Of a stretch of DNA of 64,000 bases, positions 19,152 to 54,126 are shown in pieces; position 1 is the stretch's first letter; the number at the start of each line of letters is the position of its first letter. The translations under genes were made by a program, and so were the position numbers. The notes under the pieces are model-generated. The model was not told the origin of the DNA. It did not search any database and worked only from the letters and a program-made list of their open reading frames with translations. The stretch comes from Deltaproteobacteria bacterium. GTDB taxonomy: Bacteria; Myxococcota_A; Polyangia; HGW-17. Location: the NCBI GenBank assembly GCA_016937155.1, contig JAFGWM010000040.1:149267-213266 (forward strand), read 5' to 3'.

Positions 19152-20057
19152 ATGGAGAATTTATCTAAATATTATCCGTTGATTATCAATCTTGCCATGA
19201 TTGCGCTTGTTAATTCAGGAGCAGGAATAGCTGCTGCTGATATTACAGCATATTTTTTGTACAGTGCTCCTGTTTATGAGATGGCAGCAAAAGGCATTTC
19301 AAAAAAATCATCCAAAAGGAAGAATGAAAAACGACTGTCCGGGGATATAAGAGCAATTTTGAAAAGAAATATGTTTTGTAGTACCTGTGAGCCCATTTCT
19401 CTTGATGACATTAAGGATGCCGGTGGAAAACAGCCTGAAAAGAAAGTTGACTCCCTCGAAGGTGCAACACTCCTGAGTACAATGCTTGCGGAAAGAGAGA
19501 TTTTTTCTCTTGCTGCCATTGCAGTGGAGAAACCTGAAGTGCGTACTATTCTTGTTGGTATTAACGATGAAGTGGGTGGAGCAAAAGTGATTATGATTGA
19601 GGATAAAAAGGTTACATTCCTTAAGGATGGTAAGGAAAAAATTCTTACCCTTACCGGAGAACCTAAGACAATTGCTTCTAAATCTTCAACCCCTGGAAAA
19701 CCGAAAACCAAGGATGAAGAATGGGCAAGCAAGATAAAGCAGATTGGACCAAATAAATACGAAGTGGAAAGATCTGTCGTAATGGATTTAATGCAGACAA
19801 TGGCTCAAAGAGGTCGTGGTGCAATGGTAATTCCTGATCCTAAAGGTGGATTCAGAGTTTCCTTTATACGATCCTACAGTATTTTCTATAAACTGGGTAT
19901 TAGATCAGGAGATGTGATCAAATCGGTAAATAATATCCAGCTTGATTCTTTTGATAAAGCTCTATTGATGTATACAAAACTGAAAAATGCAAATCACCTG
20001 ACTATTTCAATTAATCGTCGGGGTAAAACCGAAAATATGGATTTTTCAATCAGGTAA
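19152..20057 (+). CDS. gspC: type II secretion system protein C-like (N-terminal TM anchor, C-terminal PDZ-like domain)
   Basis: 301 aa; N-terminal hydrophobic helix; C-terminal GIRSGDVIKSVNNIQLDSFDKAL resembles a PDZ domain; directly precedes the secretin gene. Confidence 0.55.
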   Translation: MENLSKYYPLIINLAMIALVNSGAGIAAADITAYFLYSAPVYEMAAKGISKKSSKRKNEKRLSGDIRAILKRNMFCSTCEPISLDDIKDAGGKQPEKKVDSLEGATLLSTMLAEREIFSLAAIAVEKPEVRTILVGINDEVGGAKVIMIEDKKVTFLKDGKEKILTLTGEPKTIASKSSTPGKPKTKDEEWASKIKQIGPNKYEVERSVVMDLMQTMAQRGRGAMVIPDPKGGFRVSFIRSYSIFYKLGIRSGDVIKSVNNIQLDSFDKALLMYTKLKNANHLTISINRRGKTENMDFSIR

Positions 20058-20072
20058 CGAGAGGGATATACC

Positions 20073-22661
20073 TTGAGACTACTTAATTATTTAACAGTGT
20101 TTGTGGTAATACTTTCAACGTCGACCGGTTCTCTGGCCCAGCGGAAAGCCAGAGATTATAAGTACCGGAGAAACAACAGGGGGAATCTTGGCAAGCCTCA
20201 GGGTGGTGGTGGCGGTTCGGCCACTGCTGTTGGAAGTGCAAAGGATGATCCTAATTTCAATGAATGCAAGAACGTTCCCCAGTACCGGAGAATGAAGGTT
20301 TCACTTAAACCTGAAGCTAAACTTACTGAGTTGATAGGATGGATCAGTTCTCTCACATGCCGTAAATTTATTCTTACTAAAAACATCAGAGCTCAGGAAG
20401 TTACTATTTATTCACCCACCAAGGTAACTCCCAGAGAGTCGTACAGGGCATTTCTAAGTGCTCTGGAGGCAATGGGTCTTACAGTTCAGAAAAGCGGTTC
20501 ATATTATAAAATAATGGAATCAGAAAAAGCAAAGGGTCTTGTTCATCCTCTGGTTACTCCAGGTGGATATGTAGGAACAGGTGAAACTCTGGTTACCGCA
20601 ATGCTTAGAGTCAGATATGCAGAGCTTCAGGATGTGGCAGATGCTCTTGGTAAGTTTAAAAGTAAATATGGTGAAATCACTATTTATAAACCTACAAACC
20701 TTATTATTATCACAGATCTTGCAGATAGTATTACCAGGTTGCAGAGAATACTGAGACATCTTGATGTGGAAGGTGTCAACAATGAGAAAATCTGGGTTGT
20801 GAAGATTAAAAATGGTGATGCAGAGGAAATAGCAAATAAACTGAAAGAAGTTTTTGATACAGCAGGTGGCTCCTCAACATCAAAAACTGCAAAACCGACG
20901 AATTCCTACAGTAACAGAAGAAGTTCCAGAAGAAAACTGTACAAACCCGCAACTAGTACCCCTGCCTCAAAAGTCAATTCAGTGGGGAGTAACTCTTCAA
21001 TATCTAAAATAATTGCAGACGAAAGAACTAATTCACTTATTATTAAAGCTGATGACAGTTCTTATCTGGAAATACTTTCTCTTCTTGGAAAACTGGATGT
21101 AAAACTACCAGGTGGAGAAGAAAAAATTCATATTATTTATCTTGAAAATGCAGATGCAGAAGAAATGGCAGGCCTGTTAGGTTCACTTACTGGTTCTGGT
21201 GGCGGAAGTTCTTATAATTCCAGGAGAAATTCTACCTCAAGACGAGGTTCAACTTCCCGGCGTGGTTCAAGCAGTTCATACAGAGGATACAGTGGCTACG
21301 GATCATCATACGGACGTTCAAACAGTCAGCAGATCCAGGGAATTTTCAAGGGTCCCGTTCAGGTACAGCCTGACAGAAGCACAAACTCTCTGGTAATTAT
21401 GGCTTCGTCAAAAGATTTTCTATCCCTGAGAAGGATTATCAAGGAACTTGATAAACCCAGAAGACAGGTTTTCGTTGAAGTTACAATTATGGAAGTTAGT
21501 CTGGATAAAACCAGAAATCTCGGGTTATCTTTCCATGGTGGAAATACAATAGGAACCGGCGATGAACAATCCATACTTTTCGGAGGATCAATTTCAAATC
21601 AGGCAACCAACTCGATTATTATGAATCCATTGTCTCTTATGGGTTTTGCTGTTGGTTTGAGGGGACCTGAAATTGCGGACGCAGAGTCTCTTCTTGGAAT
21701 TCCAGGTCTTACATTTCCTTCATTTGGTGTGTTCTTTCAGGCACTTCAGACTAATAATGCAGTAAATGTTATTTCATCCCCGCATCTTCTTACCACAAAT
21801 AACGAAGAGGCTGAAATTACAGTGGGGGAGAATGTTCCTTTTCAGGCCGGAATTTCATCAATTTCCTCTCTGGCAAGTTCCTATGGTTCTTCAAGTTCTC
21901 TTGTGATGCCCAGTGTAGCCCCTATTCAGAGACAGGATGTTGCACTGAAGTTAAAAATAGTTCCCCATGTCAATAAGAGTAATTTTGTTCGCATGGAAGT
22001 TGAGCAGGAAATAAATGAGGTTAAATCCATCGATCAGATAGTTGGTCCGACTACATCCAAGAGAAAAGCTTCCACAGTTGTTGTGGTAAAGGATCAGCAG
22101 ACAGTTGTTATTGGTGGTCTGATGACGGAGAAATTCAAAAGTGCTGTTACCAAGGTACCACTTTTGGGGGATATTCCGCTTTTCGGGTATCTTTTTAAAT
22201 CCACAGTTAAAAATGTTGAAAAAACAAATCTTCTTATCTTCATAACTCCTTATATAATAAGAGATGAAAGTGATCTCAGAAGAATTTTTCAGGAAAAGAT
22301 AAAACAAAGAAAAGAGTTTATTGAAAAATTTGCAGCGTTTAAGGATCACGACATAGATCGAACCATAAATTACAAGCATAAATGCGGGATGTTTGAGGAG
22401 ATAAATCGTGAAGCCAAAAAAATGGAGGATGAGATCGAATTAAAGCGTAAAGCTATGGAGGAATACAAGGAAATAGATAATTCCGGTCCGGTTATTGTAA
22501 AAAATGCTGATGTTCTTAAGTTGCAGAAGGCACTTAAAAAAGTCAGAGATGATGATGAAAAGGAAACTGAAAAATCCGGAAAATTGGATAAAAAGGACAA
22601 CAAGTCAGAGTTATCCTCAAAGAATTCTAAAAAACCAGTAAAGACGGGAGAAAAAAAATAG
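20073..22661 (+). CDS. gspD: type II secretion system secretin GspD
   Basis: 862 aa; signal peptide; N-domains; secretin C-domain (VVIGGLMTE...VPLLGDIPLFGYLFK...LLIFITPYII); unusual RS/G-rich insert and long K/E-rich C-terminal tail. Confidence 0.9.
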   Translation: MRLLNYLTVFVVILSTSTGSLAQRKARDYKYRRNNRGNLGKPQGGGGGSATAVGSAKDDPNFNECKNVPQYRRMKVSLKPEAKLTELIGWISSLTCRKFILTKNIRAQEVTIYSPTKVTPRESYRAFLSALEAMGLTVQKSGSYYKIMESEKAKGLVHPLVTPGGYVGTGETLVTAMLRVRYAELQDVADALGKFKSKYGEITIYKPTNLIIITDLADSITRLQRILRHLDVEGVNNEKIWVVKIKNGDAEEIANKLKEVFDTAGGSSTSKTAKPTNSYSNRRSSRRKLYKPATSTPASKVNSVGSNSSISKIIADERTNSLIIKADDSSYLEILSLLGKLDVKLPGGEEKIHIIYLENADAEEMAGLLGSLTGSGGGSSYNSRRNSTSRRGSTSRRGSSSSYRGYSGYGSSYGRSNSQQIQGIFKGPVQVQPDRSTNSLVIMASSKDFLSLRRIIKELDKPRRQVFVEVTIMEVSLDKTRNLGLSFHGGNTIGTGDEQSILFGGSISNQATNSIIMNPLSLMGFAVGLRGPEIADAESLLGIPGLTFPSFGVFFQALQTNNAVNVISSPHLLTTNNEEAEITVGENVPFQAGISSISSLASSYGSSSSLVMPSVAPIQRQDVALKLKIVPHVNKSNFVRMEVEQEINEVKSIDQIVGPTTSKRKASTVVVVKDQQTVVIGGLMTEKFKSAVTKVPLLGDIPLFGYLFKSTVKNVEKTNLLIFITPYIIRDESDLRRIFQEKIKQRKEFIEKFAAFKDHDIDRTINYKHKCGMFEEINREAKKMEDEIELKRKAMEEYKEIDNSGPVIVKNADVLKLQKALKKVRDDDEKETEKSGKLDKKDNKSELSSKNSKKPVKTGEKK

Positions 22662-24410
22662 ATGTCCACTCATCGTCTACTTGGTGAAATTCTGATTAAA
22701 AATATGGGGATAAGTGCGACTGATATTCATAATGCTCTTGAAAAACAGGTGGAAGAAGAATCCAGAATTGGAGAAATACTTGTTAAATCAAAGATTCTTA
22801 TGGAAAAAGATGTTCTGAAAGCACTTGCTATCCAGCAGCATATTTTATTCCGTGAAATGGATCCTAAACCTGAAGATGTGGAACTTGATCTTATTGAGCA
22901 GATACCACTGAATTATGCAAAACAAAACAGAATTACACCCCTCTGGCACAATGATGACGGAACAGTTGAAATTGCATTAAGTGATCCGGGTGTTTACTGG
23001 GCAATCGATGATGTGGCTTCAAAACTGCGGAAAAAATTAAGTATATCACTAATGGAATCTCAAAGGATTCTGGAACTTATCAACAAAGCTTATACAAGAA
23101 GAGCCACAAGTGTTGATCTTGGTGATGAAAACGAAGATTTTGCAGATGGTGATGTTGAGGATCTTGCTGATAATATAGATATTAAAGATGAAGCACCTAT
23201 CATCAGATGGGTAAATGCTATCATATACAATGCTGCAAAGGAGCGGGCTAGTGATATTCATATAGAGCCCGGTGACAGAGAAGTTGTAGTAAGGTACAGA
23301 ATTGATGGTGTGTTGTATGAAACAAAACATGCCAATAAAAATTATCTGAGTGCGATTATTGCGAGAGTTAAAATTATGTCTGGTCTTGATATTGCGGAAA
23401 AGCGCCTTCCTCAGGATGGTAGAATTCGCAGAAAAATAGCGGGCAGGGATATTGATTTTCGTGTTGCAACTATTCCAACAGCAAGAGGTGAACGTATAAC
23501 AATCCGACTGCTTGATCAAAGCAGTATTCTTCTCGGTCTTGGGGATATCGGTTTTGCTCCAAGAGAACTTGATCTTATGGAAGATCTTATTGAGAGACCC
23601 CATGGAATTATTCTTGTTACCGGGCCTACCGGTAGTGGTAAAACTACAACTCTTTACGCATCTCTGAATAAAATAAACTCACCGGAACTTAATATTCTAA
23701 CAATTGAAGATCCCGTGGAATATCAACTTGAGGGAATTTCTCAGGTTCAGGTTAATCCAAAAATTCATCTGACTTTTGCAGCTGGATTGAGATCTTTTTT
23801 ACGTCATGATCCTGATGTTATTATGGTTGGTGAGATTCGTGATCTTGAAACTGCAGAAATTGCTATTCAGGCATCACTGACAGGTCATCTTGTTTTGAGT
23901 ACTGTTCATACAAATGACAGCGCTGGGGCACTTACGAGGCTTGTGGACATGGGAGTTGAGCCGTTTCTTGTTGCATCCTCTCTAAATGGAATTCTTGCCC
24001 AGAGACTGGTAAGAAGACTCTGTCCGGTTTGTAAGGAAGAATATGAGCCAACTCCTGAGGAAATTGATGATGTTGGACTTAACCCTGATGAATTTTTCAG
24101 TGGGATGATAAAGGGTTATCCGGTAAAAGCTGGAACAAGAGTTCCTGGCCCGGGTAAACTGTTCAGAGCCAAGGGTTGTCCACAATGTCTTAATACAGGA
24201 TACCAGGGACGAACAGGGATATATGAGCTCCTCATGATGGATGATGACATTCGTGCCATGTCAATGAAGAAGATAGATGCGAACCAGATTAAAAAACTGG
24301 GTGTTTCCAAAGGTCTGAAAACATTGCGTCAGGATGGGGCTTACAAAGCAATAAGCGGGATTACAAGTCTCAGTGAAGTGATGCTTGTAACCGCGGAAGA
24401 TATAGCTTAG
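22662..24410 (+). CDS. gspE: type II secretion ATPase GspE
   Basis: Walker A GPTGSGKTTT, Asp box, His box, C-terminal tetracysteine CPVC...CPQC; 582 aa. Confidence 0.95.
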   Translation: MSTHRLLGEILIKNMGISATDIHNALEKQVEEESRIGEILVKSKILMEKDVLKALAIQQHILFREMDPKPEDVELDLIEQIPLNYAKQNRITPLWHNDDGTVEIALSDPGVYWAIDDVASKLRKKLSISLMESQRILELINKAYTRRATSVDLGDENEDFADGDVEDLADNIDIKDEAPIIRWVNAIIYNAAKERASDIHIEPGDREVVVRYRIDGVLYETKHANKNYLSAIIARVKIMSGLDIAEKRLPQDGRIRRKIAGRDIDFRVATIPTARGERITIRLLDQSSILLGLGDIGFAPRELDLMEDLIERPHGIILVTGPTGSGKTTTLYASLNKINSPELNILTIEDPVEYQLEGISQVQVNPKIHLTFAAGLRSFLRHDPDVIMVGEIRDLETAEIAIQASLTGHLVLSTVHTNDSAGALTRLVDMGVEPFLVASSLNGILAQRLVRRLCPVCKEEYEPTPEEIDDVGLNPDEFFSGMIKGYPVKAGTRVPGPGKLFRAKGCPQCLNTGYQGRTGIYELLMMDDDIRAMSMKKIDANQIKKLGVSKGLKTLRQDGAYKAISGITSLSEVMLVTAEDIA

Positions 24411-24418
24411 GTGTAAAG

Positions 24419-25651
24419 ATGCCTGTTTTTCAGTATAAATGCGTGGATACCGCCGGAAAACCCGTATCGGGATCCAAGGAAGCTGATTCTGAAAAGGCCC
24501 TCAGGGCTTCACTCAGGAAGGAAGGTCTTTTTTTACAGGAATATAAAAAATCCACCGAAAAAGGGAAAGGTCTCCAGAGAGAAATCGAGATTGGATTTCT
24601 CAATACTGTAAGTGTTGCCGATATCGCATTGATCACAAGGCAGCTTGCCACACTTCTTCGTGCCAGCGTTCCACTTACTGAGTCACTGGCTGCAATAAGT
24701 GAACAGCTTGCGAATGATAAAAAGCGCAGGAAACTGTCGAATATTATTTCTGAGGTAAAAAGAAGTGTAAATGAAGGTCTTTCTTTAGCTGAGTCATTAA
24801 GTAAACATCCTAAAGAATTTAATCAATTCTACGTAAGTATGGTGAGAAGTGGCGAGGCTGCAGGAAATCTGGATGAAGTTTTACGGACTCTTAGTGAATT
24901 TCTGGAAAAACAGAAAAAACTGAAGGATAAAATTCGCAGTGCTATGACGTATCCAATGGTTATGGGTGTGGTTACTGTAATTATTATCGGTATTTTAATG
25001 ACAAGTGTTGTTCCTAATGTGGTGAGTGTTTTTGAGGATACAGATCAGACACTGCCTATTTATACAAAAATTCTGATTGGAACCAGTGAATTTGTGAGTT
25101 CCTGGTGGCTTATGCTGATAGTTGCCTTTAGTCTTTATGTGTATATCTTCAGAAAATGGAAAGCATCAGTTTCCGGTCGGAGGAATTGGGATTCCTTTGT
25201 TTTAAAGGTTCCGGTGGTTGGTGAACTGGTGAGAAAAGTGGCTATTTCAAGGTTTACAGCCACCATGGGAACTATGCTCACCAGTGGAGTTCCCATTCTT
25301 AAGGCTTTGGAAATAGTTAAGGCTGTAATGGGTAATGTGATTCTTCAGGAAGTTGTGGATGATGTTGAATCTGCAATAAGAGAAGGTAAGGGTATAGGTA
25401 AAACTCTTGAACTTTCAGGTGAATTTCCTCCCCTTGTAACACATATGATTGCTATTGGTGAGAAAAGTGGACAGCTTGAAGAAATGTTGAAGAATGTAGC
25501 GATGGCTTATGAAGATGAGGTTGAAACTGCCATCACCAGGCTCACGAGTGTACTTGAGCCGTTAATGATTGTCACAATGGGTAGTGTGGTAGCATTTGTT
25601 GTATTTTCAATACTTATGCCAATCATGCAGATGAATAATATAGGACTTTAG
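24419..25651 (+). CDS. gspF: type II secretion inner-membrane platform protein GspF
   Basis: 410 aa; duplicated GspF/PilC domain with three TM helices. Confidence 0.9.
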   Translation: MPVFQYKCVDTAGKPVSGSKEADSEKALRASLRKEGLFLQEYKKSTEKGKGLQREIEIGFLNTVSVADIALITRQLATLLRASVPLTESLAAISEQLANDKKRRKLSNIISEVKRSVNEGLSLAESLSKHPKEFNQFYVSMVRSGEAAGNLDEVLRTLSEFLEKQKKLKDKIRSAMTYPMVMGVVTVIIIGILMTSVVPNVVSVFEDTDQTLPIYTKILIGTSEFVSSWWLMLIVAFSLYVYIFRKWKASVSGRRNWDSFVLKVPVVGELVRKVAISRFTATMGTMLTSGVPILKALEIVKAVMGNVILQEVVDDVESAIREGKGIGKTLELSGEFPPLVTHMIAIGEKSGQLEEMLKNVAMAYEDEVETAITRLTSVLEPLMIVTMGSVVAFVVFSILMPIMQMNNIGL

Positions 25652-25661
25652 GAGAGAAACC

Positions 25662-26084
25662 ATGAAACGTGAAAATGTTACAGCAAGAGCATTAAGAAAT
25701 CTGAAATCCCAGAGAGGTATGACCCTGATAGAGATTATGATCGTTATTGTTATTCTCGGTCTTATCATTGGTGCAATTACCTTTGGTGTGATGCCCAGAT
25801 TTAAAAAGGCAAAGAAAAAGACTACTCAACTCAAATTGAATAATATTGCAAGTATCCTTACAGAGAGTGCCGAAGAACCAGAGCACAGCGGAAAAGAAGG
25901 AAACCAGATCCTTGAAGCTCTGGTTACTGATGGAACAATTAAAAAGTCTGATCTTAAGGATGCCTGGGGACAGGAAGTCAAGGCTGAAAAAGCTGGAGAA
26001 GGTTTTTGTGTCAGAAGTGCCGGACCTGACAAGAGTTTTAACACAGCTGATGATGTTCTCAGCAATGACTGTAATGAGAACTGA
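25662..26084 (+). CDS. gspG: major pseudopilin GspG (type IV pilin-like N-terminus)
   Basis: prepilin signature ...QRG/MTLIEIMIVIVILGLIIGAI with Glu at +5; 140 aa; unusually long 19-aa leader. Confidence 0.85.
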   Translation: MKRENVTARALRNLKSQRGMTLIEIMIVIVILGLIIGAITFGVMPRFKKAKKKTTQLKLNNIASILTESAEEPEHSGKEGNQILEALVTDGTIKKSDLKDAWGQEVKAEKAGEGFCVRSAGPDKSFNTADDVLSNDCNEN

Positions 26085-26089
26085 TTAAA

Positions 26090-26830
26090 ATGAAGTATTT
26101 CCCCTGTAAATACCCTGATAGGGAAATAAATAAGGGGGAAGAGGGATTTACCCTCATTGAGATACTGATAGTTATTGTTATTATGGGATTAATAATAGGA
26201 AGCATTGCTTTTTATTTTAAAGTTATCCCTAAAATGAGAATGAAAGAAAGCTCCAGGAAGTTTGCCAATGCTATCCGGTTCACTTCCAATCATGCGCGTA
26301 CCACTAGATTGTTTCACCGGTTGATTCTGGATCTGGATGCAGAAAATCCCTCTCTTGAACTTGAGATAGTTCCTTCCGGGGAAACTGTTCCTGATCTTGA
26401 TCCCGAAATAACGGAAGATGAAGAGGATTCGATTACCTTCGAAGAGTGGCCGGAATTCGATCCTGCATCCCCCATAGGACCCACTGGAACAGATGATAAT
26501 TCTAAGCCTTTCAGACCAAGGCTTGGGGGGTGGAAAAAGCCTGATAAATCTTTTATGAAACCAGTTAAGCTTGAGGGAATACATATCAGGAGAGTATCGT
26601 TTCCCTGTATAGGAAAGGAATATGACAGCGGGAAGGTGGCATACTATTTTTTCCCGAATGGACAGAATTTTGGTGGTGTAATTGAACTTACAAGTGCTTC
26701 AGGTGCCAGAATGAAAATGCTGGTTCACGCTGCAACTGGCCTTGTTCAATTTGTGGATGCTGATTCGGATAACAGAAATCTCTGTTTTGATGATGATGGA
26801 AACAACGTTGAGAAACTGGATAATAACTGA
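26090..26830 (+). CDS. minor pseudopilin (GspH-like)
   Basis: prepilin N-terminus ...EEG/FTLIEILIVIVIMGLIIGSIAF; 246 aa. Confidence 0.7.
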   Translation: MKYFPCKYPDREINKGEEGFTLIEILIVIVIMGLIIGSIAFYFKVIPKMRMKESSRKFANAIRFTSNHARTTRLFHRLILDLDAENPSLELEIVPSGETVPDLDPEITEDEEDSITFEEWPEFDPASPIGPTGTDDNSKPFRPRLGGWKKPDKSFMKPVKLEGIHIRRVSFPCIGKEYDSGKVAYYFFPNGQNFGGVIELTSASGARMKMLVHAATGLVQFVDADSDNRNLCFDDDGNNVEKLDNN

Positions 26831-26831
26831 C

Positions 26832-27572
26832 ATGAGAACTACCATGAGCACACTAAAAAGAGGATTTACACTTCTGGAAGTTGTGTTGTCACTGGCTATC
26901 TTAAGTATGTCTCTCCTGTGGATTCTCAAAGGTCAGAGTGATTCGGTTTCAAGGAGTGTAAGAAGCCGGCTTCTTACTCAGGGTATGCATCTGGCTCAGG
27001 CTAAACTTCTGGAAACAGAATTTAACCTCAGAAGAGATGGTTTTGGTACATTCGAGGATGAAAATTGCGGTGATTTTGATCCTTCTGATTATGAGGGTTC
27101 CGAGAGATTCAGATACTGCGTGATTATTGAGAAGATTGAATTGCCGGATATGGCTATGCTACAGGAAAAAATTATGGGTGGTATGGGTACCTCTGATGAA
27201 TCCGCTGAGGGAACAAATACTTCGCCACTTACAGATCTTATTAGTCAGTTTCTCCCAGGGGCAGGTTCATCTTCGATGGATGAAGGTCTGGGAAAAATGG
27301 CTTCCTCTTTTATGGGACAGGCCATGAGTATGATTCAGAGTGTTTTGGAGGCTGCAGTAAGACGTGTTACTGTCAGGGTGATGTGGAGAGTAGCAAAAAA
27401 AGAAAGATATTTTGAGCTGGTGTCATACCTTACTGATCTTGATGAGCTGGATAGATCACTCATCAGTCCTTCAAACACTGGGACTTCAGGTACAACAGGA
27501 ACTTCTTCCACAGGAACCTCTTCCACAACCAGAACGACAGGGAGTTCTTCATCGGGGAGTACAACAAGATGA
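26832..27572 (+). CDS. minor pseudopilin (GspI-like) with Ser/Thr-rich C-terminal tail
   Basis: ORF 26742..27572; likely start MRTTMSTLKRG/FTLLEVVLSLAIL (or MSTLKRG at about 26844); C-terminal TGTSGTTGTSSTGTSSTTRTTGSSSSGSTTR. Confidence 0.65.
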   Translation: MRTTMSTLKRGFTLLEVVLSLAILSMSLLWILKGQSDSVSRSVRSRLLTQGMHLAQAKLLETEFNLRRDGFGTFEDENCGDFDPSDYEGSERFRYCVIIEKIELPDMAMLQEKIMGGMGTSDESAEGTNTSPLTDLISQFLPGAGSSSMDEGLGKMASSFMGQAMSMIQSVLEAAVRRVTVRVMWRVAKKERYFELVSYLTDLDELDRSLISPSNTGTSGTTGTSSTGTSSTTRTTGSSSSGSTTR

Positions 27573-28381
27573 GGTACCTGATTCTTCAACCGCATACATG
27601 TTCAAAGAAAGGCATGACCCTTATAGAGGTGCTTGTTTCACTGGTTATTATTTCAATAATGACAGCAAGTGTGTATGGAACAATTTATACATCCAGACAG
27701 GTACAAAAGGCAAATGAACAGAAATCCAAACAGTATCAGTTGATTAGAGGTTTTCTGTCAATGCTGGAAGATGATTTGAGTATGTCCTATCTGTCACTTG
27801 GGGAAGACACAAGTGCTCCTGAAAAGAGAACTTTTTTCAGGGCAAACTACGATGGTGCCGGCTTAAATCTGGTTTTTTCAACATTTTCACATATCAGAAG
27901 CAGTCGAAAAAATCATGAAGCTGATAATGCCATCGTGCAATATGCAATCATTGACGATCCCGAGATGCCATCAAGATATGCCATAAAGCGCAGAGAAACC
28001 CACAGGCTGGAACAGAAGTATTTCGAAGAAATTCCTGGGGAAAGCTGGCTTATTCTACCAAGAGTAGACTCGTTAAGAATGGAATTTTATGACAAAACCC
28101 GTGATGAATGGCTCGAGGAATGGGATACAACAACCATAGACGGACAGATCAATCGTCTTCCAAATCAGATAAAAATTCATCTGGTGGTTGAAGATGGAAG
28201 GGAGAATCTTATCCACTTCACAACATTTGTTCAGCCAAAACTAATTGATTCAATAAACCTTACACCTTCAGGAAATTCAAGCAGCAGTTCGAGTAGTACC
28301 AGCTCTTCAACGTCAGGAAGTTCATCCACCGGAAGAACAACTACCGGTTCTACAACTTCCAGCACCAGGGTGACAAGATGA
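27569..28381 (+). CDS. minor pseudopilin (GspJ-like) with Ser/Thr-rich C-terminal tail
   Basis: prepilin N-terminus ...KKG/MTLIEVLVSLVIISIM; 270 aa; C-terminal SSSSSSTSSSTSGSSSTGRTTTGSTTSSTRVTR. Confidence 0.65.
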   Translation: MRYLILQPHTCSKKGMTLIEVLVSLVIISIMTASVYGTIYTSRQVQKANEQKSKQYQLIRGFLSMLEDDLSMSYLSLGEDTSAPEKRTFFRANYDGAGLNLVFSTFSHIRSSRKNHEADNAIVQYAIIDDPEMPSRYAIKRRETHRLEQKYFEEIPGESWLILPRVDSLRMEFYDKTRDEWLEEWDTTTIDGQINRLPNQIKIHLVVEDGRENLIHFTTFVQPKLIDSINLTPSGNSSSSSSSTSSSTSGSSSTGRTTTGSTTSSTRVTR

Positions 28382-29604
28382 ACAAATCTTCTTCACGTTC
28401 CCAAAGAGGATATGCGCTGCTTATAGTTACCATGGCAATTGCTATTATTGGTGTTCTTGTACAAATGTTTATTCTTTCTTCACAGGCTGAACTCAGATCC
28501 GTCCGGGCAGAGGGAGATCGGATAAAAGCAAGATATATCAGTTATAGCGTACTGGAAGTAACGAAACTATTTCTTAAGGTTCAGGAAAAATTTCTTGATA
28601 ACAACGCAATGCTGTCACAAATGGGTCTTGATATGGGACAGTTTCTTCCGATGATACTTCCGCTTTTTTTTGGGGATGTGGATATGGTTGGCGCAATGAT
28701 TGGCACCGATGTTGTTGGTCTTGGTATGAAACCCGGTCAGGGAAGTGGTGGAATGATTTCTATGGATGCTGAAGATGGAAAAATCAATATAAACTGTGCA
28801 ATTTCAGATGCTAATATTCAGCAATTAAATCTTAATCTCACAGCACTTTTTTCCAGCAGGCGTTATGATGAACTCTTTGGAAGACTTCTTTCAGATTCCG
28901 ATTCGCTGGATAGAGTTCAGCAGGTGGGGGCCTTTATCGACTTCATTGATCTGGATCAGGGAGGTTATGCCGGGGGTGATGAGGATGGATACTATATGGG
29001 ACTGTCTGAACCCTATGTTTCAAAAAATAATTTGCTTGATTCCAATGAAGAAATCAGACTTATAAGGGGTGTTGATGACGTTTTCTGGACGAATTTTGGG
29101 AGTTCATTGACAGTATATGGTTCATGTAATCTGAATCTATGTGCTGTTGATTCAAATAACTGGCAACTGGTTGCAGGAATAATTGTTGCCAGTGCAAAGG
29201 ATCCCAATCATAAGGTTATAAATGATCCAGTTTTACTGAAAATGCTGGCGACTACTGTTGCACCACAAATTCCAGGGATTTGCAAAGACACAAGTACTTT
29301 TATACAGGCAGTGGCTAATCCTGGTGTTGCATCAAATGTAATGGCTGCGGCTCTTGGAATAAGTGCAGATGAAATGAGTGATCTTGGTAATGATGGGGTA
29401 AATGATGCAGAGGTTCAGGGGGTTGAACTTGATCAGAGTAAGCTTAGTAAAATAGTTACAAGTGCCTCCAAGCGTTTTTATCGTCTGAAGGTTTATGGTG
29501 TATCCGGAAAATCAAAACATATGGTTAATGCAGTTTGGGATCAAAAGCTGGTTTCAACTTCTTCCGGAAAAACCGGTGGTTTTGTTTACTGGAGGGAAGA
29601 ATAA
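28378..29604 (+). CDS. gspK: type II secretion minor pseudopilin GspK-like
   Basis: 408 aa; N-terminal RGYALLIVTMAIAIIGVL helix lacking Glu+5 as in GspK; operon position after the I/J-like genes. Confidence 0.65.
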   Translation: MNKSSSRSQRGYALLIVTMAIAIIGVLVQMFILSSQAELRSVRAEGDRIKARYISYSVLEVTKLFLKVQEKFLDNNAMLSQMGLDMGQFLPMILPLFFGDVDMVGAMIGTDVVGLGMKPGQGSGGMISMDAEDGKININCAISDANIQQLNLNLTALFSSRRYDELFGRLLSDSDSLDRVQQVGAFIDFIDLDQGGYAGGDEDGYYMGLSEPYVSKNNLLDSNEEIRLIRGVDDVFWTNFGSSLTVYGSCNLNLCAVDSNNWQLVAGIIVASAKDPNHKVINDPVLLKMLATTVAPQIPGICKDTSTFIQAVANPGVASNVMAAALGISADEMSDLGNDGVNDAEVQGVELDQSKLSKIVTSASKRFYRLKVYGVSGKSKHMVNAVWDQKLVSTSSGKTGGFVYWREE

Positions 29605-29651
29605 TATCCCTTAAAATTTGTTCACGTTTAGTGGACTGGACAGGATGAAAG

Positions 29652-31331
29652 ATGAGTGGCAGATATTTTGTCATTGATATTGGAAGCAGAAACATAAAAG
29701 GAGCTGTCTGTGATGTCAGAAAAAAGGAATTTACTGTAATCGACACCATCGCAGTCAAAAAACCTCTTTTAAAAATAGAATACAGTTCTGCGATTAAAAA
29801 TATCCTTGAAAAACTCGGTGGAAAATCTTCCCAGAATATAATTATTTCCATAGGAGATGGAGTATATCTGAGAAATATGACATTTCCATTCAGTGAAAGA
29901 TCTAAAATAGATCCTCTTGTTCTATATGAATTTGGAGATCAACTTCCTGAAGAAATAGATGATCTTACCACTACCTGGACAATTAATCCCAAGGGGCAGA
30001 GTTCTGAAAGTATTGTTTTGTGCGCAGCTACTTCCTCAGACAATGTTGTTCAGATGATAAACAATATAAATACACTAGGAGGGGATGTATGCCGATTTGT
30101 GATGAGTGGTGCAAGAGCAATGACATTCGGTATTCCTGGGGATAATTATGCCGCGGTTATTGATTTTGGTGCCGGTTTAACAGAAATATCCATTCTGCAC
30201 GGAGATACGGTTGTGATGTCCAGAATTATTTACTCAGGTGTGGAGGATATAATTGATTCTTTGGCTTCATTTACCGGTCAGGATGTGGATGTAATAAGAA
30301 ACTGGATTATTACTTCCGGTGGTGTGAGTATGGAACATCCTGATGAAGAAGAATTTGAAAAAATAATCAGAAATGAACTGGTAAAACAGACTGAAGAATG
30401 GAGAAAATTTATTGGCATATCTGAAAAGGAACTTGGTTTAACAATAGGTGATATAGTTCTTACCGGGGGAGGAAGTGCACTACAGGGACTTTTACCGTTT
30501 GTATCAAATGTTACCGGAAAAAAAGTTACTCATGCTTCGATACCCAATGTGATTATGCCTCAGGAGTGGATTTCAACTATTGCCCTGGTTTCCACAGCAA
30601 CAAAATACAGTAGTGATATGTGTGATTTCAGAAGAGGTGGTTTGGCCAGAGGGGCTTCTTTTTCACTGGTGAAGGACAGAGCTTTAATGGTGATGATGTC
30701 TTTGATGTTGTTTTTTGGATCTCTGGTTGTTTCAGGGGTGGTAAGCCTTAATAATCTTGAAAGACAGGAAAAGGATCTTCTTGGTTTGAGTGCTCTGTTA
30801 TCCAGAGAAGTTCTCGGAAAAAAATTCATGGATCCTGGTTCAATAAATCGAAGTATCAAGAAAAAATTTAAGAAAGGTAAAAAGGGAATAGATAAGTCCG
30901 AGTCTCCGATTCCCAGAATGAGCGCATATACGGTGCTTGGGCTGATATCGAGTAATCTGCCACCAGCTAAACCTTTGAAAAAGGATGGAGAGAAGGCAAC
31001 GGAAGAAAAGCCGGATGAAAAAGAAAAGACTTCTCCTCCTTCAGATAAAAAATCTGATGAAAAAGCAAAAAAACCATCAGATTCAAAACCCGAAGTTGTT
31101 GATGAAAAATTAAAAGAAATCGCTCTGGATATCACCAAAATACATATTAAAACCGGAAAAATTTCAATAACCGGAACTGTGGAAAGAGCCCAGGACGTTG
31201 ATGAAATATCAAAAGGTCTTAAAAGAATTGAATGTTTTCAGGAAATCAGACAGGGAAAAATGAAAACAGTTGGTTCCGGGGAAAATGAAAAAAGGGAATT
31301 TACCCTTGATATAACAATGAACTGTTTATAG
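29652..31331 (+). CDS. gspL: type II secretion protein GspL-like (cytoplasmic actin-like domain, single TM, periplasmic domain)
   Basis: N-terminus YFVIDIGSRNIKGAVCD (PilM/GspL actin-like fold); TM ALMVMMSLMLFFGSLVVSGVV; K/E-rich linker; 559 aa. Confidence 0.7.
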   Translation: MSGRYFVIDIGSRNIKGAVCDVRKKEFTVIDTIAVKKPLLKIEYSSAIKNILEKLGGKSSQNIIISIGDGVYLRNMTFPFSERSKIDPLVLYEFGDQLPEEIDDLTTTWTINPKGQSSESIVLCAATSSDNVVQMINNINTLGGDVCRFVMSGARAMTFGIPGDNYAAVIDFGAGLTEISILHGDTVVMSRIIYSGVEDIIDSLASFTGQDVDVIRNWIITSGGVSMEHPDEEEFEKIIRNELVKQTEEWRKFIGISEKELGLTIGDIVLTGGGSALQGLLPFVSNVTGKKVTHASIPNVIMPQEWISTIALVSTATKYSSDMCDFRRGGLARGASFSLVKDRALMVMMSLMLFFGSLVVSGVVSLNNLERQEKDLLGLSALLSREVLGKKFMDPGSINRSIKKKFKKGKKGIDKSESPIPRMSAYTVLGLISSNLPPAKPLKKDGEKATEEKPDEKEKTSPPSDKKSDEKAKKPSDSKPEVVDEKLKEIALDITKIHIKTGKISITGTVERAQDVDEISKGLKRIECFQEIRQGKMKTVGSGENEKREFTLDITMNCL

Positions 31332-31343
31332 GAAGTCTGACTG

Positions 31344-31967
31344 ATGAAGATTTTTAGTAAAATTGAAAATGGTTTTGATAATCTGAGCTCAAGAGAACAG
31401 AAAATGGTTGTGGCCACCATTATAAGTTCTATGTTTATGATTTGTGGGTTATTTATTTTTCTAATCAGTGATTCTTTTTCTGAACGGGAACAGAGAATAG
31501 ATGGACTCAAGGGAGCTATAAAAAATCTGTACAAAAACAGAGGAAAAGTGGCAAATGTCAAGGATATTCTCGCTTCCTACGAAATGAAAGCAATAAAAAA
31601 ACCTCCCATGCTTCAGGGTTTTATTGATACTGCCGCACAGGATTTTGAACTAAAGGGATTGAATTATAATCCTAAAAAACCAAAGGATCTTGGAGAACAC
31701 AAGGAATATCATGAAGAGAGCGTAGAAGTTAAACTTCATGATGTGGACCTTAAAAAATTTTCACAACTCATGGATAGAGTTGAAAACAACCAGTATCTTA
31801 TTATGGTTACTGAGTTGAAATCAACTTCAAGAAGAGGACATCACGACAGACTTGATTCCTCCATTATTGTTTCTTCATATTACAAAAGAAATGCAAAAGA
31901 GTTGAAAGAGTTAGCCACTGATAAAAAAGGTAAAAATGAAAAACGCAAGAAGAAGGGAGAAAAATAA
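31344..31967 (+). CDS. gspM: type II secretion protein GspM-like
   Basis: 207 aa bitopic protein, N-terminal TM (VVATIISSMFMICGLFIFLI); follows the gspL-like gene. Confidence 0.6.
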   Translation: MKIFSKIENGFDNLSSREQKMVVATIISSMFMICGLFIFLISDSFSEREQRIDGLKGAIKNLYKNRGKVANVKDILASYEMKAIKKPPMLQGFIDTAAQDFELKGLNYNPKKPKDLGEHKEYHEESVEVKLHDVDLKKFSQLMDRVENNQYLIMVTELKSTSRRGHHDRLDSSIIVSSYYKRNAKELKELATDKKGKNEKRKKKGEK

Positions 31968-33145
31968 TGAGAATAAGAACTCTGCTTATCAAAGGTCTTA
32001 AATATTTTTCTGTCTCCACCTTTGGAAGTATTATCTTTTTTCTTTCGTTCTGGATGTTTATGGATTGGTCGCTTATCAAGGATAGAATTGAAAAGGAATT
32101 GGGAAAAGCAACTGGATTTACAGTTAAAATAGGTGATTTCAGTCTGGGTTTTGGAAGTGTTTCTCTGACGGATATAGTGATGACAGGTGACAGTGACAAG
32201 GAAGGGGAGAAACCTACAAAATTTAAAATTTCCACTCTTAATCTGAAATCATCCCTTCTAAGTCTTGCAAGAGGAGAGGAGAATCTTTCCTTTTATATGG
32301 ATGCAATGGGTGGAAGTGTCGAAGGTTCTTATTATAATAGTGAAAATAAAAAGAAATTTTCTCTTGAAATAAAGGATATCAAGGTCAGTGCAATTCCATT
32401 AATGAAGAATTTTATGAGTCTTCCTATTGTTGGAAGAATTACCGGAAAAGGAGAAATGACAATTCCTGGAAAGGGTTTCAGGAAAGCCGATGGAAAACTG
32501 GAGATAGCATGTAATAAATGTATTATCGGAGATGGCAAAACCAAGGTTAAGGCAACTTTTTTAGCCCCTCCTAAAAACAAAGGTAGTCAGAAGTGGGCTC
32601 AGGAAGGTGTTACTCTTCCTCCGATGAATCTTGGTAAATTCGGTGGAAATATTGATATTAAAAATGGTGTGGCTGGCTTCAACGATTTCGTAGCAAAAAG
32701 TTCCGATGGAGAGGCAGAACTTGCAGGAAATATAAAGTTGAGGGATCCTTTAAAAACTTCTATTTCTGACCTTTATTTTAAATTTAAGTTTTCAGATGAA
32801 GCAAAAAAGAAAAATGAAAGTCTTGAGGCTATTGAATTTTCGATGGCTCGTCAGGGAAAAAGACCTGATGGTTTTTATGGCCTGGCTATAACAGGTGCTA
32901 TTTCTAAAATTAAATTCAAGCAGCGCAGACGTGGTATTGTTGATAACAAAAAGAAGCATGCAAACGGCGGAAAGCTTAAGAAACCCCATCGACCGAGGGA
33001 TAGAACTCCCCGAAATCCCAGAAAACCGGGTTTAAACAAAAAATTTGGGGGAAAAATAAAACCGGGACTTTCAAGAAAAATTATGGCACCAAAATTTAAC
33101 AGAGCAGGGAAAATGCCAGGAGCTGCCCCGGCAAAAAAAGACTGA
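31967..33145 (+). CDS. GspN-like bitopic protein with polybasic Pro-rich C-terminal tail
   Basis: 392 aa; N-terminal TM; last gene of the secretion operon; tail KPHRPRDRTPRNPRKPGLNKKFGGKIKPG. Confidence 0.5.
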   Translation: MRIRTLLIKGLKYFSVSTFGSIIFFLSFWMFMDWSLIKDRIEKELGKATGFTVKIGDFSLGFGSVSLTDIVMTGDSDKEGEKPTKFKISTLNLKSSLLSLARGEENLSFYMDAMGGSVEGSYYNSENKKKFSLEIKDIKVSAIPLMKNFMSLPIVGRITGKGEMTIPGKGFRKADGKLEIACNKCIIGDGKTKVKATFLAPPKNKGSQKWAQEGVTLPPMNLGKFGGNIDIKNGVAGFNDFVAKSSDGEAELAGNIKLRDPLKTSISDLYFKFKFSDEAKKKNESLEAIEFSMARQGKRPDGFYGLAITGAISKIKFKQRRRGIVDNKKKHANGGKLKKPHRPRDRTPRNPRKPGLNKKFGGKIKPGLSRKIMAPKFNRAGKMPGAAPAKKD

Positions 33146-37241: not shown

Positions 37242-37277
37242 ATTATATAGTGTTACACTACAAGGAGAAAACACAAA

Positions 37278-38564: not shown

Positions 38565-38586
38565 TGGAATATAAGGAGCATACCAA

Positions 38587-53928: not shown

Positions 53929-54126
53929 TTTATTCTCCAGTCGACAAAATGGTTTTGCGATTAATACCATGTTATATGTCCACATAGAAACATTTTTGTT
54001 AAAACAGTATCTGCGATTTGGTTTAAATAGAGGTTTAGTGATAAACACTCAGAAACATCCGTATTTTTTATAGGTTATCTGATTAAATAAATATAAAAAA
54101 TCCGGTGTCTAAAAGGAGAACTAAAA

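What the first reader, a model, noticed from the sequence alone, without database searches (positions are those of the whole stretch)
19152..33145. Complete 12-gene secretion locus with atypical low-complexity extensions on several components
Gene order matches a gspC-D-E-F-G-H-I-J-K-L-M-N operon, but several parts deviate from textbook T2SS. The secretin has an RS/G-rich insert (SGGGSSYNSRRNSTSRRGSTSRRGSSSSYRGYSGYGSSYGRSNSQQ) and a ~150-aa K/E-rich C-terminal tail. Two minor pseudopilins end in 30-40 residue Ser/Thr-rich tails, which could be O-glycosylation sites. The GspL-like protein has a K/E-rich periplasmic linker and the GspN-like protein a polybasic Pro-rich tail. The major pseudopilin also has an unusually long 19-aa leader. 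These may mark a divergent subtype.
Basis: partly seen in the sequence, partly recalled or inferred. Interest (0 to 1): 0.45.

Follow-up and report, generated by a model that had tools for sequence, protein, structure and literature searches.

The report
Myxobacterial-type type II secretion operon
This is an ordinary type II protein-secretion gene cluster of the kind found across myxobacteria, and its odd low-complexity loops and tails are floppy segments shared by the whole lineage, not marks of a new system.

Summary

The locus is a Myxococcota-type T2SS. GspC (GspC_delta), GspD, GspE, GspF and GspN (Leptospira-type) pass NCBIfam equivalog cut-offs, while the T4aP models PilB and PilQ fail theirs. 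The window is a GenBank MAG (JXR95_08670-08725), already partly annotated as T2SS.

Thirteen related Myxococcota MAG loci carry the same operon in the same order. They have loops, linkers or tails at the same positions, but the composition turns over:
- The GspI/GspJ tails (27-51 aa) are S/T-rich here and G/T-, G/Q- or N/G/P/K-rich in relatives.
- The GspD "RS/G insert" is an enlarged alpha1-beta2 loop of the N3 domain. That loop is short in XcpQ/E. coli GspD and unresolved in PulD.
- The GspD "K/E tail" is mostly a conserved three-helix C-terminal domain followed by about 30 disordered residues.

The 17-28 aa GspG leader with Met at +1 is also clade-wide.

I read the segments as inherited intrinsically disordered spacers. 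The O-glycosylation idea has no support: the S/T content is not conserved and no oligosaccharyltransferase gene is in the window.

Verdict: a new member of a known kind, of low to moderate interest.

The parts
19152..20057 (+). gspC (301 aa): N-terminal membrane anchor, HR region and C-terminal PDZ domain
   Evidence: NCBIfam GspC_delta NF041515 scores 190.9 bits against a cut-off of 150, over the full length. Pfam PDZ_2 hit is weak. GenBank names it 'hypothetical protein'.
20073..22661 (+). gspD secretin (862 aa, TTG start): signal peptide, low-complexity N-terminus, N0, N1, N2, N3, secretin domain and C-terminal helical domain
   Evidence: TIGR02517 scores 497.5 against a cut-off of 351, while PilQ TIGR02515 scores 200.6 against 284. 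Pfam finds N0, Secretin_N and Secretin. The AF2 model gives PulD 6hcg as the best PDB match at E = 8.7e-34.
20862..20993 (+).
   Evidence: pLDDT is below 50 across 264-307. An insert is present in all 121 aligned sequences (query plus 120 homologues): median 43 aa, median net charge +3.
21195..21332 (+). GspD N3-domain disordered insert (residues 375-420), RS/G-rich followed by G/Y-rich, in the alpha1-beta2 loop
   Evidence: pLDDT is below 50 across 375-422. It maps to the short loop of XcpQ (269-277) and E. coli GspD (281-288), and to the unresolved PulD loop 288-303. Across the 121 aligned sequences the median length is 36 aa, median net charge +4 and median D+E 0.
22263..22571 (+). GspD conserved C-terminal helical domain (residues 731-833), in the position of an S domain
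   Evidence: Three predicted helices. The first ~90 residues (to about 820) are conserved across Myxococcota GspD, including Myxococcaceae and Sandaracinaceae sequences.
22572..22658 (+). GspD variable K-rich disordered C-terminus (residues 834-862)
   Evidence: pLDDT is below 50. Homologues have K-, PA- or DE-rich termini of different lengths.
22662..24410 (+). gspE assembly ATPase (582 aa), with an N-terminal MshEN-like segment
   Evidence: TIGR02533 scores 663.3 against a cut-off of 630, while PilB TIGR02538 scores 581.9 against 675.65. The c-di-GMP motif domain NF053729 scores 39.1 against 38, which is borderline.
24419..25651 (+). gspF inner-membrane platform protein (410 aa)
   Evidence: TIGR02120 scores 464.6 against a cut-off of 424.
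25662..26084 (+). gspG major pseudopilin (140 aa): 19-aa leader, G(-1), M(+1), E(+5)
   Evidence: N_methyl motif found. GspG TIGR01710 scores 40.3, below its cut-off of 88.85. Orthologues have leaders of 17-28 aa with Met at +1.
26090..26830 (+). gspH-like minor pseudopilin (246 aa), 19-aa leader
   Evidence: N_methyl motif found. The best NCBIfam hit is GspH, below cut-off.
26829..27572 (+). gspI-like minor pseudopilin. GenBank starts it at 26844 (242 aa). The last 35 aa (27465-27569) form the S/T/G tail.
   Evidence: N_methyl motif and a weak GspI hit. The 242-aa form is in GenBank. All 13 orthologues have a 27-44 aa tail.
27569..28381 (+). gspJ minor pseudopilin (270 aa). The last 38 aa (28265-28378) form the S/T tail.
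   Evidence: Pfam T2SSJ scores 31.7 against a cut-off of 28. All 13 close orthologues have a tail. Of 149 family representatives, 22 have a tail of 20 aa or more.
28378..29604 (+). gspK minor pseudopilin (408 aa), which lacks Glu at +5
   Evidence: Pfam T2SSK_1st scores 39.5 against a cut-off of 26.2. The sequence after the cleavage site is G|YALLI. GenBank names it GspK.
29652..31331 (+). gspL (559 aa): PilM-like actin-fold cytoplasmic domain, TM helix (~338-360), helix, K/E/P-rich linker (residues 396-488, nt 30837-31115) and a C-terminal beta-alpha-beta domain
   Evidence: The orthologue profile hits M. xanthus PilM 3jc8 at 3e-15 and classical GspL at 0.013-0.18. Among 12 orthologues, 10 hit PilM_2, 10 hit PilN and 7 hit T2SSL. 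The linker is variable and its flanks are conserved.
31344..31967 (+). gspM (207 aa), with a K-rich C-terminal tail (residues 185-207)
   Evidence: The Pfam T2SSM hit is weak for the window protein (E = 0.0046), but all 12 orthologues hit it, best E = 9.6e-10. A charged K/E/D-rich tail is present in every orthologue recovered, lysine-rich in the closest ones.
31967..33145 (+). gspN (392 aa), with a basic, Pro-rich tail (residues 317-392, nt 32915-33142)
   Evidence: TIGR04411 T2SS_GspN_Lepto scores 153.6 against a cut-off of 50. Orthologues also have a low-complexity tail with basic and Pro-rich stretches.

Best explanation
The locus is a single operon encoding a type II secretion system of the Myxococcota (formerly 'deltaproteobacterial'/Leptospira-like) type.

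From established T2SS knowledge, I infer it works as follows:
- The GspE hexamer on the GspF/GspL/GspM(/GspN) inner-membrane platform uses ATP to polymerise GspG into a short periplasmic pseudopilus. The pseudopilus is capped by GspK-GspI-GspJ, with GspH.
- GspC links the platform to the N0 ring of the GspD secretin.
- The growing pseudopilus pushes folded periplasmic cargo out through the secretin.
- A prepilin peptidase encoded elsewhere must remove the long leaders.

The low-complexity segments are intrinsically disordered loops, linkers and tails that the whole clade inherited. Their position and approximate length are kept while their sequence and composition drift, partly following genomic GC. 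They most likely act as flexible spacers or charged fringes:
- basic loops on the N2 and N3 rings of the secretin;
- a long periplasmic tether in GspL;
- basic tails on GspM and GspN;
- flexible tails on the two tip pseudopilins.
I do not think they are sequence-specific modules or glycosylation sites.

Shown here: gene identities, order, conservation pattern and predicted disorder. Inferred: secretion activity and any role of the disordered segments.
For: Identity:
- Equivalog cut-offs are passed for GspC_delta, GspD, GspE, GspF and GspN_Lepto.
- Pfam T2SSJ and T2SSK pass their cut-offs.
- T2SSM hits all 12 orthologues and T2SSL hits 7 of 12.
- All five pseudopilins carry the prepilin motif, and GspK lacks E+5.
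- The GspD model matches PulD/GspD structures best.

Lineage:
- 723 GspD homologues; those that carry a source name are almost all Myxococcota or 'Deltaproteobacteria' MAGs. The best 120 listed are 755-1006 aa long.
- The same C-to-N order is found in 13 Myxococcota MAG loci spanning 38-66% GC.
- M. xanthus GspD is 863 aa and has been studied experimentally.

Disorder and conservation pattern:
- pLDDT is below 50 exactly at the N2 and N3 inserts and at the last ~30 residues of GspD.
- The N3 loop is present in all 121 aligned sequences and is basic, with almost no acidic residues.
- GspI/GspJ tails are present in all 13 relatives, with S/T, G/T, G/Q or N/G/P/K composition.
- The GspL linker varies from 40 to 90 aa between conserved flanks.
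- The GspM and GspN tails and the long GspG leaders are clade-wide.

Precedent: the same N3 loop is unresolved in PulD, and D. radiodurans GspD has a 59-aa unresolved gap in N3.
Against: - No experiment exists on this organism, which is an uncultured MAG.
- GspG, GspH and GspI score below their NCBIfam cut-offs, so their individual names rest on motif, size and gene order.
- No prepilin peptidase or pilotin is in the window.
- Persistence of tail presence and length across 38-66% GC genomes hints at some selected function that 'spacer' does not specify.
- The consistently positive charge of the N2/N3 loops (median +3 and +4, D+E about 0) also suggests more than neutral filler.
Confidence: 0.8

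Rival explanations
1. The Ser/Thr-rich C-terminal tails of GspI and GspJ are O-glycosylation sites, making this a glycosylated-pseudopilus T2SS.
For: In this genome the tails are 71-74% Ser+Thr, and they are C-terminal. From my own knowledge, untested here, some type IV pilins (Pseudomonas group I PilA, Acinetobacter PilA) are O-glycosylated at or near the C-terminus.
Against: Orthologous tails in close relatives are (GGT)n, (GGQ)n, GGQS repeats or N/G/P/K-rich. L017's GspI tail is 56% G and 23% Q with almost no S/T. No Wzy_C/PglL/TfpO-type gene is among window ORFs of 150 aa or more. A full-text search found no paper reporting T2SS pseudopilin glycosylation.
Confidence: 0.08
2. The extensions have no function. 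They are neutral low-complexity expansions, from replication slippage and relaxed constraint at loop and terminus positions, and the machine simply tolerates them.
For: Composition turns over freely and follows GC. A 15-nt tandem repeat lies inside the GspI tail coding region. Other secreted proteins and lipoproteins in the window also carry low-complexity linkers. The last codons of the GspI and GspJ tails contain the Shine-Dalgarno of the next gene, so part of the terminal conservation is at the nucleotide level.
Against: Tails of 27-51 aa persist in all 13 orthologous loci across a wide GC range, and none has lost them. N2/N3 loop charge is consistently positive across the 121 aligned sequences. 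Low complexity is about twice as frequent in the T2SS genes as in the rest of the window.
Confidence: 0.2
3. The locus is not a secretion system. It is a type IVa pilus-like or other type IV filament machine: long leaders, Met+1 pilin, PilM/PilN-like 'GspL'.
For: The GspL profile is closer to PilM than to classical GspL in the PDB. The GspG leader is long with Met at +1, which from my own knowledge is type IVb-like. GspE scores 582 bits on the PilB model.
Against: The PilB and PilQ models are below their cut-offs while GspE and GspD are above theirs. GspC with a PDZ domain, GspK, GspM and GspN are T2SS-specific and present. There is no PilT-type retraction ATPase and there are no separate PilN/O/P genes in the operon. 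T2SSL hits 7 of 12 orthologues.
Confidence: 0.03

Closest known systems
Myxococcus xanthus Gsp type II secretion system (GspD = 'slime nozzle' secretin)
   Same: Same phylum-level family. GspD is the same length (863 vs 862 aa). The post-secretin helical domain is conserved in Myxococcaceae-type sequences. GspC_delta and Leptospira-type GspN models apply.
   Different: The closest Myxococcaceae-type GspD among the hits (P0078) is only about 35% identical. This genome is low-GC (about 39%) and has longer, more Arg/Ser-rich N3 loops. In a distant Myxococcales locus (L013), GspJ has no tail and the GspI tail is poly-Gly. The M. xanthus data (essentiality, slime and gliding, MYXO-CTERM cargo; PMC12475490) cannot be transferred without testing, and no MYXO-CTERM protein was found among the ten window proteins I scanned.
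Classical gammaproteobacterial T2SS (Klebsiella Pul, Vibrio Eps, Pseudomonas Xcp, E. coli Gsp)
   Same: Same component set and order C-N. Same secretin domain architecture N0-N3 plus secretin. Same ATPase and platform families.
   Different: - The N3 alpha1-beta2 loop is 8-20 aa there and about 46 aa here.
- There is an additional N2 insert here.
- The C-terminal domain is three helices plus a disordered tail, rather than a pilotin-binding S domain, and no pilotin gene is present.
- From my own knowledge, classical pseudopilin leaders are about 6-8 aa, against 19 aa here.
- GspL retains PilM/PilN-like sequence.
- GspN is of the Leptospira type.
Type IVa pilus machine (PilB/C/M/N/O/P/Q)
   Same: Homologous ATPase, platform, secretin and prepilin-type subunits. 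The GspL N-domain resembles PilM.
   Different: The PilB and PilQ equivalog models fail their cut-offs. The operon has no PilT. GspC, GspK and GspN are present.
Deinococcus radiodurans T2SS secretin (PMC10828601)
   Same: It also has a long (59-aa) unresolved, presumably disordered, insert in the N3 domain and lacks a canonical S domain and pilotin.
   Different: It belongs to an unrelated lineage, has extra GspP belt and GspT cap proteins and a flange domain, and shows no evidence of similar tails on its pseudopilins.

Membership tests
Type II secretion system (T2SS) | GspD-type secretin with N0-N3 plus a secretin domain | tested here: met
   TIGR02517 scores 497.5 against 351.35. Pfam finds N0, Secretin_N and Secretin. 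The AF2 model's best PDB hits are PulD and GspD.
Type II secretion system (T2SS) | GspE-type assembly ATPase and GspF platform protein | tested here: met
   TIGR02533 scores 663.3 against 630.25. TIGR02120 scores 464.6 against 424.
Type II secretion system (T2SS) | GspC linking the inner-membrane platform to the secretin (HR plus PDZ) | tested here: met
   NF041515 GspC_delta scores 190.9 against 150 over the full length.
Type II secretion system (T2SS) | Major pseudopilin GspG plus minor pseudopilins H, I, J and K with a prepilin (G|F/M-x-x-x-E) signal, GspK lacking E+5 | tested here: met
   N_methyl motif in G, H, I and J. T2SSJ and T2SSK_1st are above the Pfam cut-offs. GspK has G|YALLI. 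GspG, GspH and GspI are below their NCBIfam equivalog cut-offs, so those three names are positional.
Type II secretion system (T2SS) | GspL and GspM bitopic platform proteins | tested here: met
   T2SSM hits 12 of 12 orthologues, best 9.6e-10. T2SSL hits 7 of 12, PilM_2 10 of 12 and PilN 10 of 12. The window proteins alone are below the cut-offs.
Type II secretion system (T2SS) | Prepilin peptidase (GspO/PilD) | tested here: not met
   No Peptidase_A24 hit among window ORFs of 150 aa or more. It is often encoded elsewhere, and the rest of the genome was not available.
Type II secretion system (T2SS) | Secretion of folded periplasmic proteins across the outer membrane | not testable with these tools
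   Uncultured MAG. The function is inferred by homology.
Myxococcota/Leptospira-type T2SS subtype | GspC_delta and Leptospira-type GspN | tested here: met
   NF041515 and TIGR04411 (153.6 against 50). The same operon is in 13 Myxococcota MAG loci.
Type IVa pilus system | PilB- and PilQ-type ATPase and secretin, and a PilT retraction ATPase | tested here: not met
   PilB scores 581.9 against 675.65. PilQ scores 200.6 against 284.35. The operon has no second ATPase.
O-glycosylated type IV pilin systems | Conserved Ser/Thr acceptor region and a linked O-oligosaccharyltransferase (PglL/TfpO, Wzy_C) | tested here: not met
   S/T content is not conserved in the orthologous tails. No Wzy_C hit in the window. 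Actual glycosylation cannot be tested here.
c-di-GMP-binding MshEN ATPases | Tandem 24-residue RLGxx(L/V/I)(L/V/I)xxG... motifs at the N-terminus | tested here: inconclusive
   NF053729 scores 39.1 against a cut-off of 38 at GspE residues 7-58. By eye, both motif copies deviate at the central Gly.

The most novel reading that the evidence does not exclude
If GspD forms the usual 15-mer, the two basic, acid-free disordered loops of the secretin could act as a functional element. These are the N2 insert (about 44 aa) and the N3 insert (about 46 aa: an Arg/Ser-rich half followed by a G/Y-, FGG- or PWG-type aromatic half). Fifteen subunits would contribute about 1,300 disordered residues in total. 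If the loops face the lumen they could form a charged, cohesive mesh in the periplasmic vestibule. Such a mesh might gate the channel like a nucleoporin-style plug, or grip an anionic polymer, which would fit the reported need for GspD in myxobacterial slime export. The orientation of the loops was not determined here.
Probability: 0.08. Interest if true: 0.65.

Novelty: new member of a known kind. Interest (0 to 1): 0.25.

Why it matters
The main value is negative: the locus is a standard Myxococcota T2SS, and a scan should not flag it as a new secretion subtype.

Three smaller points may interest specialists:
- Disordered basic loops in the secretin N2/N3 rings, disordered tails on the tip pseudopilins GspI and GspJ, and a long GspL tether are conserved in position across a clade spanning 38-66% GC. 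This gives testable handles on how T2SS periplasmic geometry is tuned in myxobacteria. M. xanthus gspD is essential and a depletion strain exists.
- This lineage's GspL keeps recognisable PilM and PilN sequence signatures, which illustrates the T4aP-T2SS relationship.
- GenBank still calls GspC, GspL and GspM of this MAG 'hypothetical', so the annotation can be improved.

Tried and rejected
- The first related-loci run failed with a server error and the repeat worked.
- The search for homologous proteins with GspJ and with the GspL N-terminal part returned only 6 and 2 hits. The word index was swamped or too insensitive. I replaced it with locus-derived orthologues and the exhaustive phmmer search.
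- AlphaFold2 of GspL with a 2-sequence alignment gave mean pLDDT 38. I did not use it for fold search. Only its secondary-structure order is mentioned, at low confidence.
- The GspM profile against PDB sequences found nothing.
- Promoter and terminator consensus scans over the operon were at chance level (38 found against 36.7 expected; 11 against 11.6). They were not used to define the operon ends.
- No MYXO-CTERM tags were found among ten candidate secreted proteins of the window.
- The papers I could read mention an N3-level constriction and an unresolved loop, but none states whether the N3 alpha1-beta2 loop points into the lumen.
- I considered the tails as a translational-coupling by-product. 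Only the last few codons carry the next gene's Shine-Dalgarno, which cannot explain 35-50 codons.
Full report
**Observation**

Window 19152-33145 (+) holds twelve co-directional ORFs. They are separated by 0-47 nt or overlap by 1-4 nt, which fits a single operon. Consensus promoter and terminator scans were at chance level and add nothing.

Against the amino-acid background of the other 41 window ORFs (segments chosen after looking):
- The GspD N3 insert (residues 375-420) is 74% R+S+G (P = 6e-15).
- The GspI and GspJ tails are 71% and 74% S+T (P = 1e-14 and 9e-17).
- The GspL linker (396-488) is 34% K+E.
- The GspN tail (317-392) is 47% K+R+P.

A crude entropy mask marks 7.1% of T2SS residues as low complexity, against 3.9% elsewhere in the window.

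The GspG leader of 19 residues is firm. The ATG at 25662 follows an AGGAG Shine-Dalgarno and no other in-frame start precedes the G|MTLIE cleavage site.

**Identity**

NCBIfam equivalog cut-offs are passed by:
- GspC (GspC_delta NF041515, 190.9 against 150);
- GspD (TIGR02517, 497.5 against 351);
- GspE (TIGR02533, 663.3 against 630);
- GspF (TIGR02120, 464.6 against 424);
- GspN (Leptospira-type TIGR04411, 153.6 against 50).

The type IVa pilus models PilB (581.9 against 675.65) and PilQ (200.6 against 284.35) fail theirs.

Pfam T2SSJ and T2SSK_1st pass for GspJ and GspK, and all five pseudopilins carry the N-methylation motif. GspK lacks Glu+5, as GspK proteins do. GspG, GspH and GspI are below their equivalog cut-offs, so their names rest on motif, size and order.

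GspM is weak on its own (T2SSM E = 0.0046), but all 12 orthologues hit T2SSM, best 9.6e-10.

GspL is the most divergent component:
- A profile of 12 orthologues finds M. xanthus PilM (3jc8, 3e-15) and T. thermophilus PilM (2ych, 1e-12) well ahead of classical GspL/EpsL cytoplasmic domains (0.013-0.18).
- Individually, 10 of 12 orthologues hit PilM_2, 10 of 12 hit PilN and 7 of 12 hit T2SSL.
- The protein is therefore a GspL that still reads like a PilM-PilN fusion. Invariant D9, G11, G173, T177, G272 and G274 sit where, by my reading, actin-fold nucleotide-binding motifs lie.

**Source**

Nine of the ten proteins looked up are exact GenBank entries: MBN2724127 and MBN2724131-38, locus tags within JXR95_08670-08725, from a 'Deltaproteobacteria bacterium' MAG on a 254-kb contig. 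GspD as I called it (TTG start) is not an exact match in the collection. In GenBank GspC, GspL and GspM are 'hypothetical', G-J are 'prepilin-type', and GspK and GspN are named.

No prepilin peptidase, pilotin or Wzy_C-type oligosaccharyltransferase is among the other window ORFs of 150 aa or more.

**Relatives**

GspD has 723 homologues at E <= 1e-20. The best 120 are 755-1006 aa long, and those that carry a source name are almost all Myxococcota or 'Deltaproteobacteria' MAGs.

A genome scan with GspF returned 30 loci. Thirteen Myxococcota MAG loci (L001-L012 and L017; GspF 63-79% identical; 38-66% GC) carry the same genes in the same C-to-N order wherever the contig extends far enough. A more distant Myxococcales locus (L013) has C through L.

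M. xanthus GspD is 863 aa and essential. It forms the outer-membrane 'nozzles', is required for slime secretion and gliding, and is reported to export MYXO-CTERM proteins (PMC12475490). So the 'long' architecture is the norm for the phylum, and the system has been studied experimentally.

**The extensions, one by one**

1. **GspD N3 insert.**
   - AlphaFold2 (60-sequence alignment, mean pLDDT 67) resolves N0, N1, N2, N3 and the secretin domain. It gives pLDDT below 50 exactly at 264-307 (inside N2) and 375-422 (inside N3). Both fall in the loop between the first helix and the second strand of the domain.
   - The model's best PDB matches are PulD, GspD, EpsD and XcpQ, ahead of InvG and PilQ.
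   - In HMMER alignments the N3 insert replaces an 8-aa stretch of XcpQ (269-277) and a similarly short stretch of E. coli K-12 GspD. It abuts position 307 of the 6hcg chain, next to the PulD loop reported as unresolved (288-303, numbering as in the paper). D. radiodurans GspD has a 59-aa unresolved gap in N3.
   - Across the 121 aligned sequences (query plus 120 homologues) the N3 loop has a median of 36 aa (21-55), a median net charge of +4 and a median of 0 acidic residues. The N2 insert has a median of 43 aa and a median charge of +3.
   - Shorter low-complexity loops sit at the same sites in Bacteriovoracaceae and Planctomycetota GspD.
   - The insert is therefore an enlarged version of a known variable, flexible loop. 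It is largest and most Arg/Ser-rich in this sub-clade, where the second half is G/Y-, FGG- or PWG-rich.

2. **GspD C-terminus.** The 132 residues after the secretin domain are not one disordered tail. Three helices are predicted (732-754, 773-798, 811-831), followed by a disordered 834-862. The first ~90 residues are conserved across Myxococcota, including Myxococcaceae- and Sandaracinaceae-type sequences. The last 30-60 residues vary: K-rich, PA-rich or DE-rich.

3. **GspI and GspJ tails.**
   - All 13 close loci have 27-51 aa tails at the same place. The composition is S/T here and in L012 and L002, (GGT)n in L006 and L008-L010, (GGQ)n or GGQS in L011 and L017, and N/G/P/K in L003 and L004.
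   - In L013 the GspI tail is poly-Gly and GspJ has no tail.
   - An exhaustive phmmer search with the GspJ core found 844 relatives. Of the 149 best representatives with a complete C-terminal match, 22 carry tails of 20 aa or more, including all 7 closest. These tails are again G/T/S/Q/P/A-rich.
   - The final codons of both tails contain the Shine-Dalgarno of the next gene, and a 15-nt tandem repeat lies in the GspI tail.

4. **GspL linker.** It is 40-90 aa and K/E/P/A/D-rich in every orthologue. It sits between a conserved membrane-proximal helix and a conserved C-terminal domain.

5. **GspM and GspN tails.** The charged GspM tail (lysine-rich in the closest loci) and the basic, Pro-rich GspN tail are present in every orthologue recovered.

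6. **GspG leader.** GspG leaders of 17-28 aa with Met at +1 are found in all relatives.

**Interpretation**

The pattern is position and approximate length kept, sequence and composition free and partly tracking GC, and low predicted confidence. That is what is expected of intrinsically disordered loops, linkers and tails inherited by a lineage.

The machine itself should work as any T2SS does. This is inferred from family membership and was not tested.

I commit to the disordered segments being flexible spacers or charged fringes. The consistent positive charge of the secretin loops and the universal retention of the pseudopilin tails suggest weak selection on charge and length.

The O-glycosylation idea is not supported. 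The S/T content is specific to a few genomes, no transferase gene is nearby, and a literature search found no paper reporting T2SS pseudopilin glycosylation.

A purely neutral origin cannot be excluded (about 0.2).

One more novel reading remains open: that the 15-fold arrays of basic, aromatic-containing N2/N3 loops form a functional mesh in the secretin vestibule. This would be interesting given the reported slime-export role of myxobacterial GspD. I could not determine which way the loops face.

**Verdict**

But it is the ordinary, already modelled Myxococcota type, and the extensions are lineage traits. I rate it a new member of a known kind, with an interest score of 0.25.

Noticed in passing
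window 35325-40452 (+): An aconitase (35325-37241) is followed directly by a two-subunit ATP-citrate lyase: 37278-38564 (Citrate_synth_N/Citrate_bind) and 38587-40452 (CoA_binding/Ligase_CoA/Citrate_synt). These are reverse-TCA-type genes, which is unexpected in a Myxococcota-like genome.
   Followed up: no
window 22662-22840 (+), GspE residues 1-60: The GspE N-terminus matches the MshEN c-di-GMP-binding motif domain, just above cut-off (NF053729, 39.1 against 38). This T2SS ATPase might therefore be c-di-GMP regulated. By eye, both 24-residue motif copies are imperfect.
   Followed up: partly
window 29652-31331 (+): The 'GspL' of this clade is closer in sequence to PilM (3jc8, 3e-15) than to solved classical GspL cytoplasmic domains. 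Orthologues also hit PilN. By my reading it keeps actin-fold nucleotide-binding-type motifs. It looks like a T4aP-like PilM-PilN fusion form of GspL.
   Followed up: partly
window 20862-20993 (+), GspD residues 264-307: A second disordered, basic, S/T-rich insert sits in the N2 domain at the equivalent loop to the N3 insert. It is conserved across the 121 aligned sequences.
   Followed up: yes
window 25990-26084 (+), GspG C-terminus: GspG has a conserved Cys pair (FCV...SNDC) bracketing an SAGxDxxFxTxDD loop in all orthologues. From memory, that loop resembles the classical GspG calcium-binding loop. A disulfide-clamped loop would be more pilin-like than classical GspG.
   Followed up: no
loci L001-L012 and L017 vs the window: This one T2SS clade spans genomes from about 38% to 66% GC. 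The composition of the low-complexity tails shifts from S/T/N/K-rich at low GC to G/Q/P/A-rich at high GC.
   Followed up: partly
window 16401-17657 (-): A 418-aa protein built from about seven repeats of paired CxxC zinc-ribbon-like units, with only a marginal FYVE hit (28.1 bits against a 27.8 cut-off) and no NCBIfam family. It lies upstream of the operon, beyond the divergent ArsP-like permease gene (17746-18819, -).
   Followed up: no
window 4491-6566 (-) and 61790-63532 (+): Two candidate secreted proteases. One is a subtilase with four myxobacterial Cys-rich acidic repeats (TIGR02232/DUF4215). The other is a C25 gingipain-family peptidase with a weak PorU-like match far below cut-off. 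Both are plausible T2SS cargo, but neither has a MYXO-CTERM tag.
   Followed up: partly
window 50534-51676 (-): HMG-CoA reductase, a mevalonate-pathway marker. From my own knowledge this is consistent with a myxobacterial affiliation.
   Followed up: no
window 53161-54048 (-), residues 69-107: A staphylococcal-nuclease-domain protein with a 39-aa poly-Lys/Arg/His segment (TNHIKKKNKFAKKRIKKSHKKRKKLKRKNHKKK...). Strongly basic low-complexity segments are therefore not confined to the T2SS genes.
   Followed up: no
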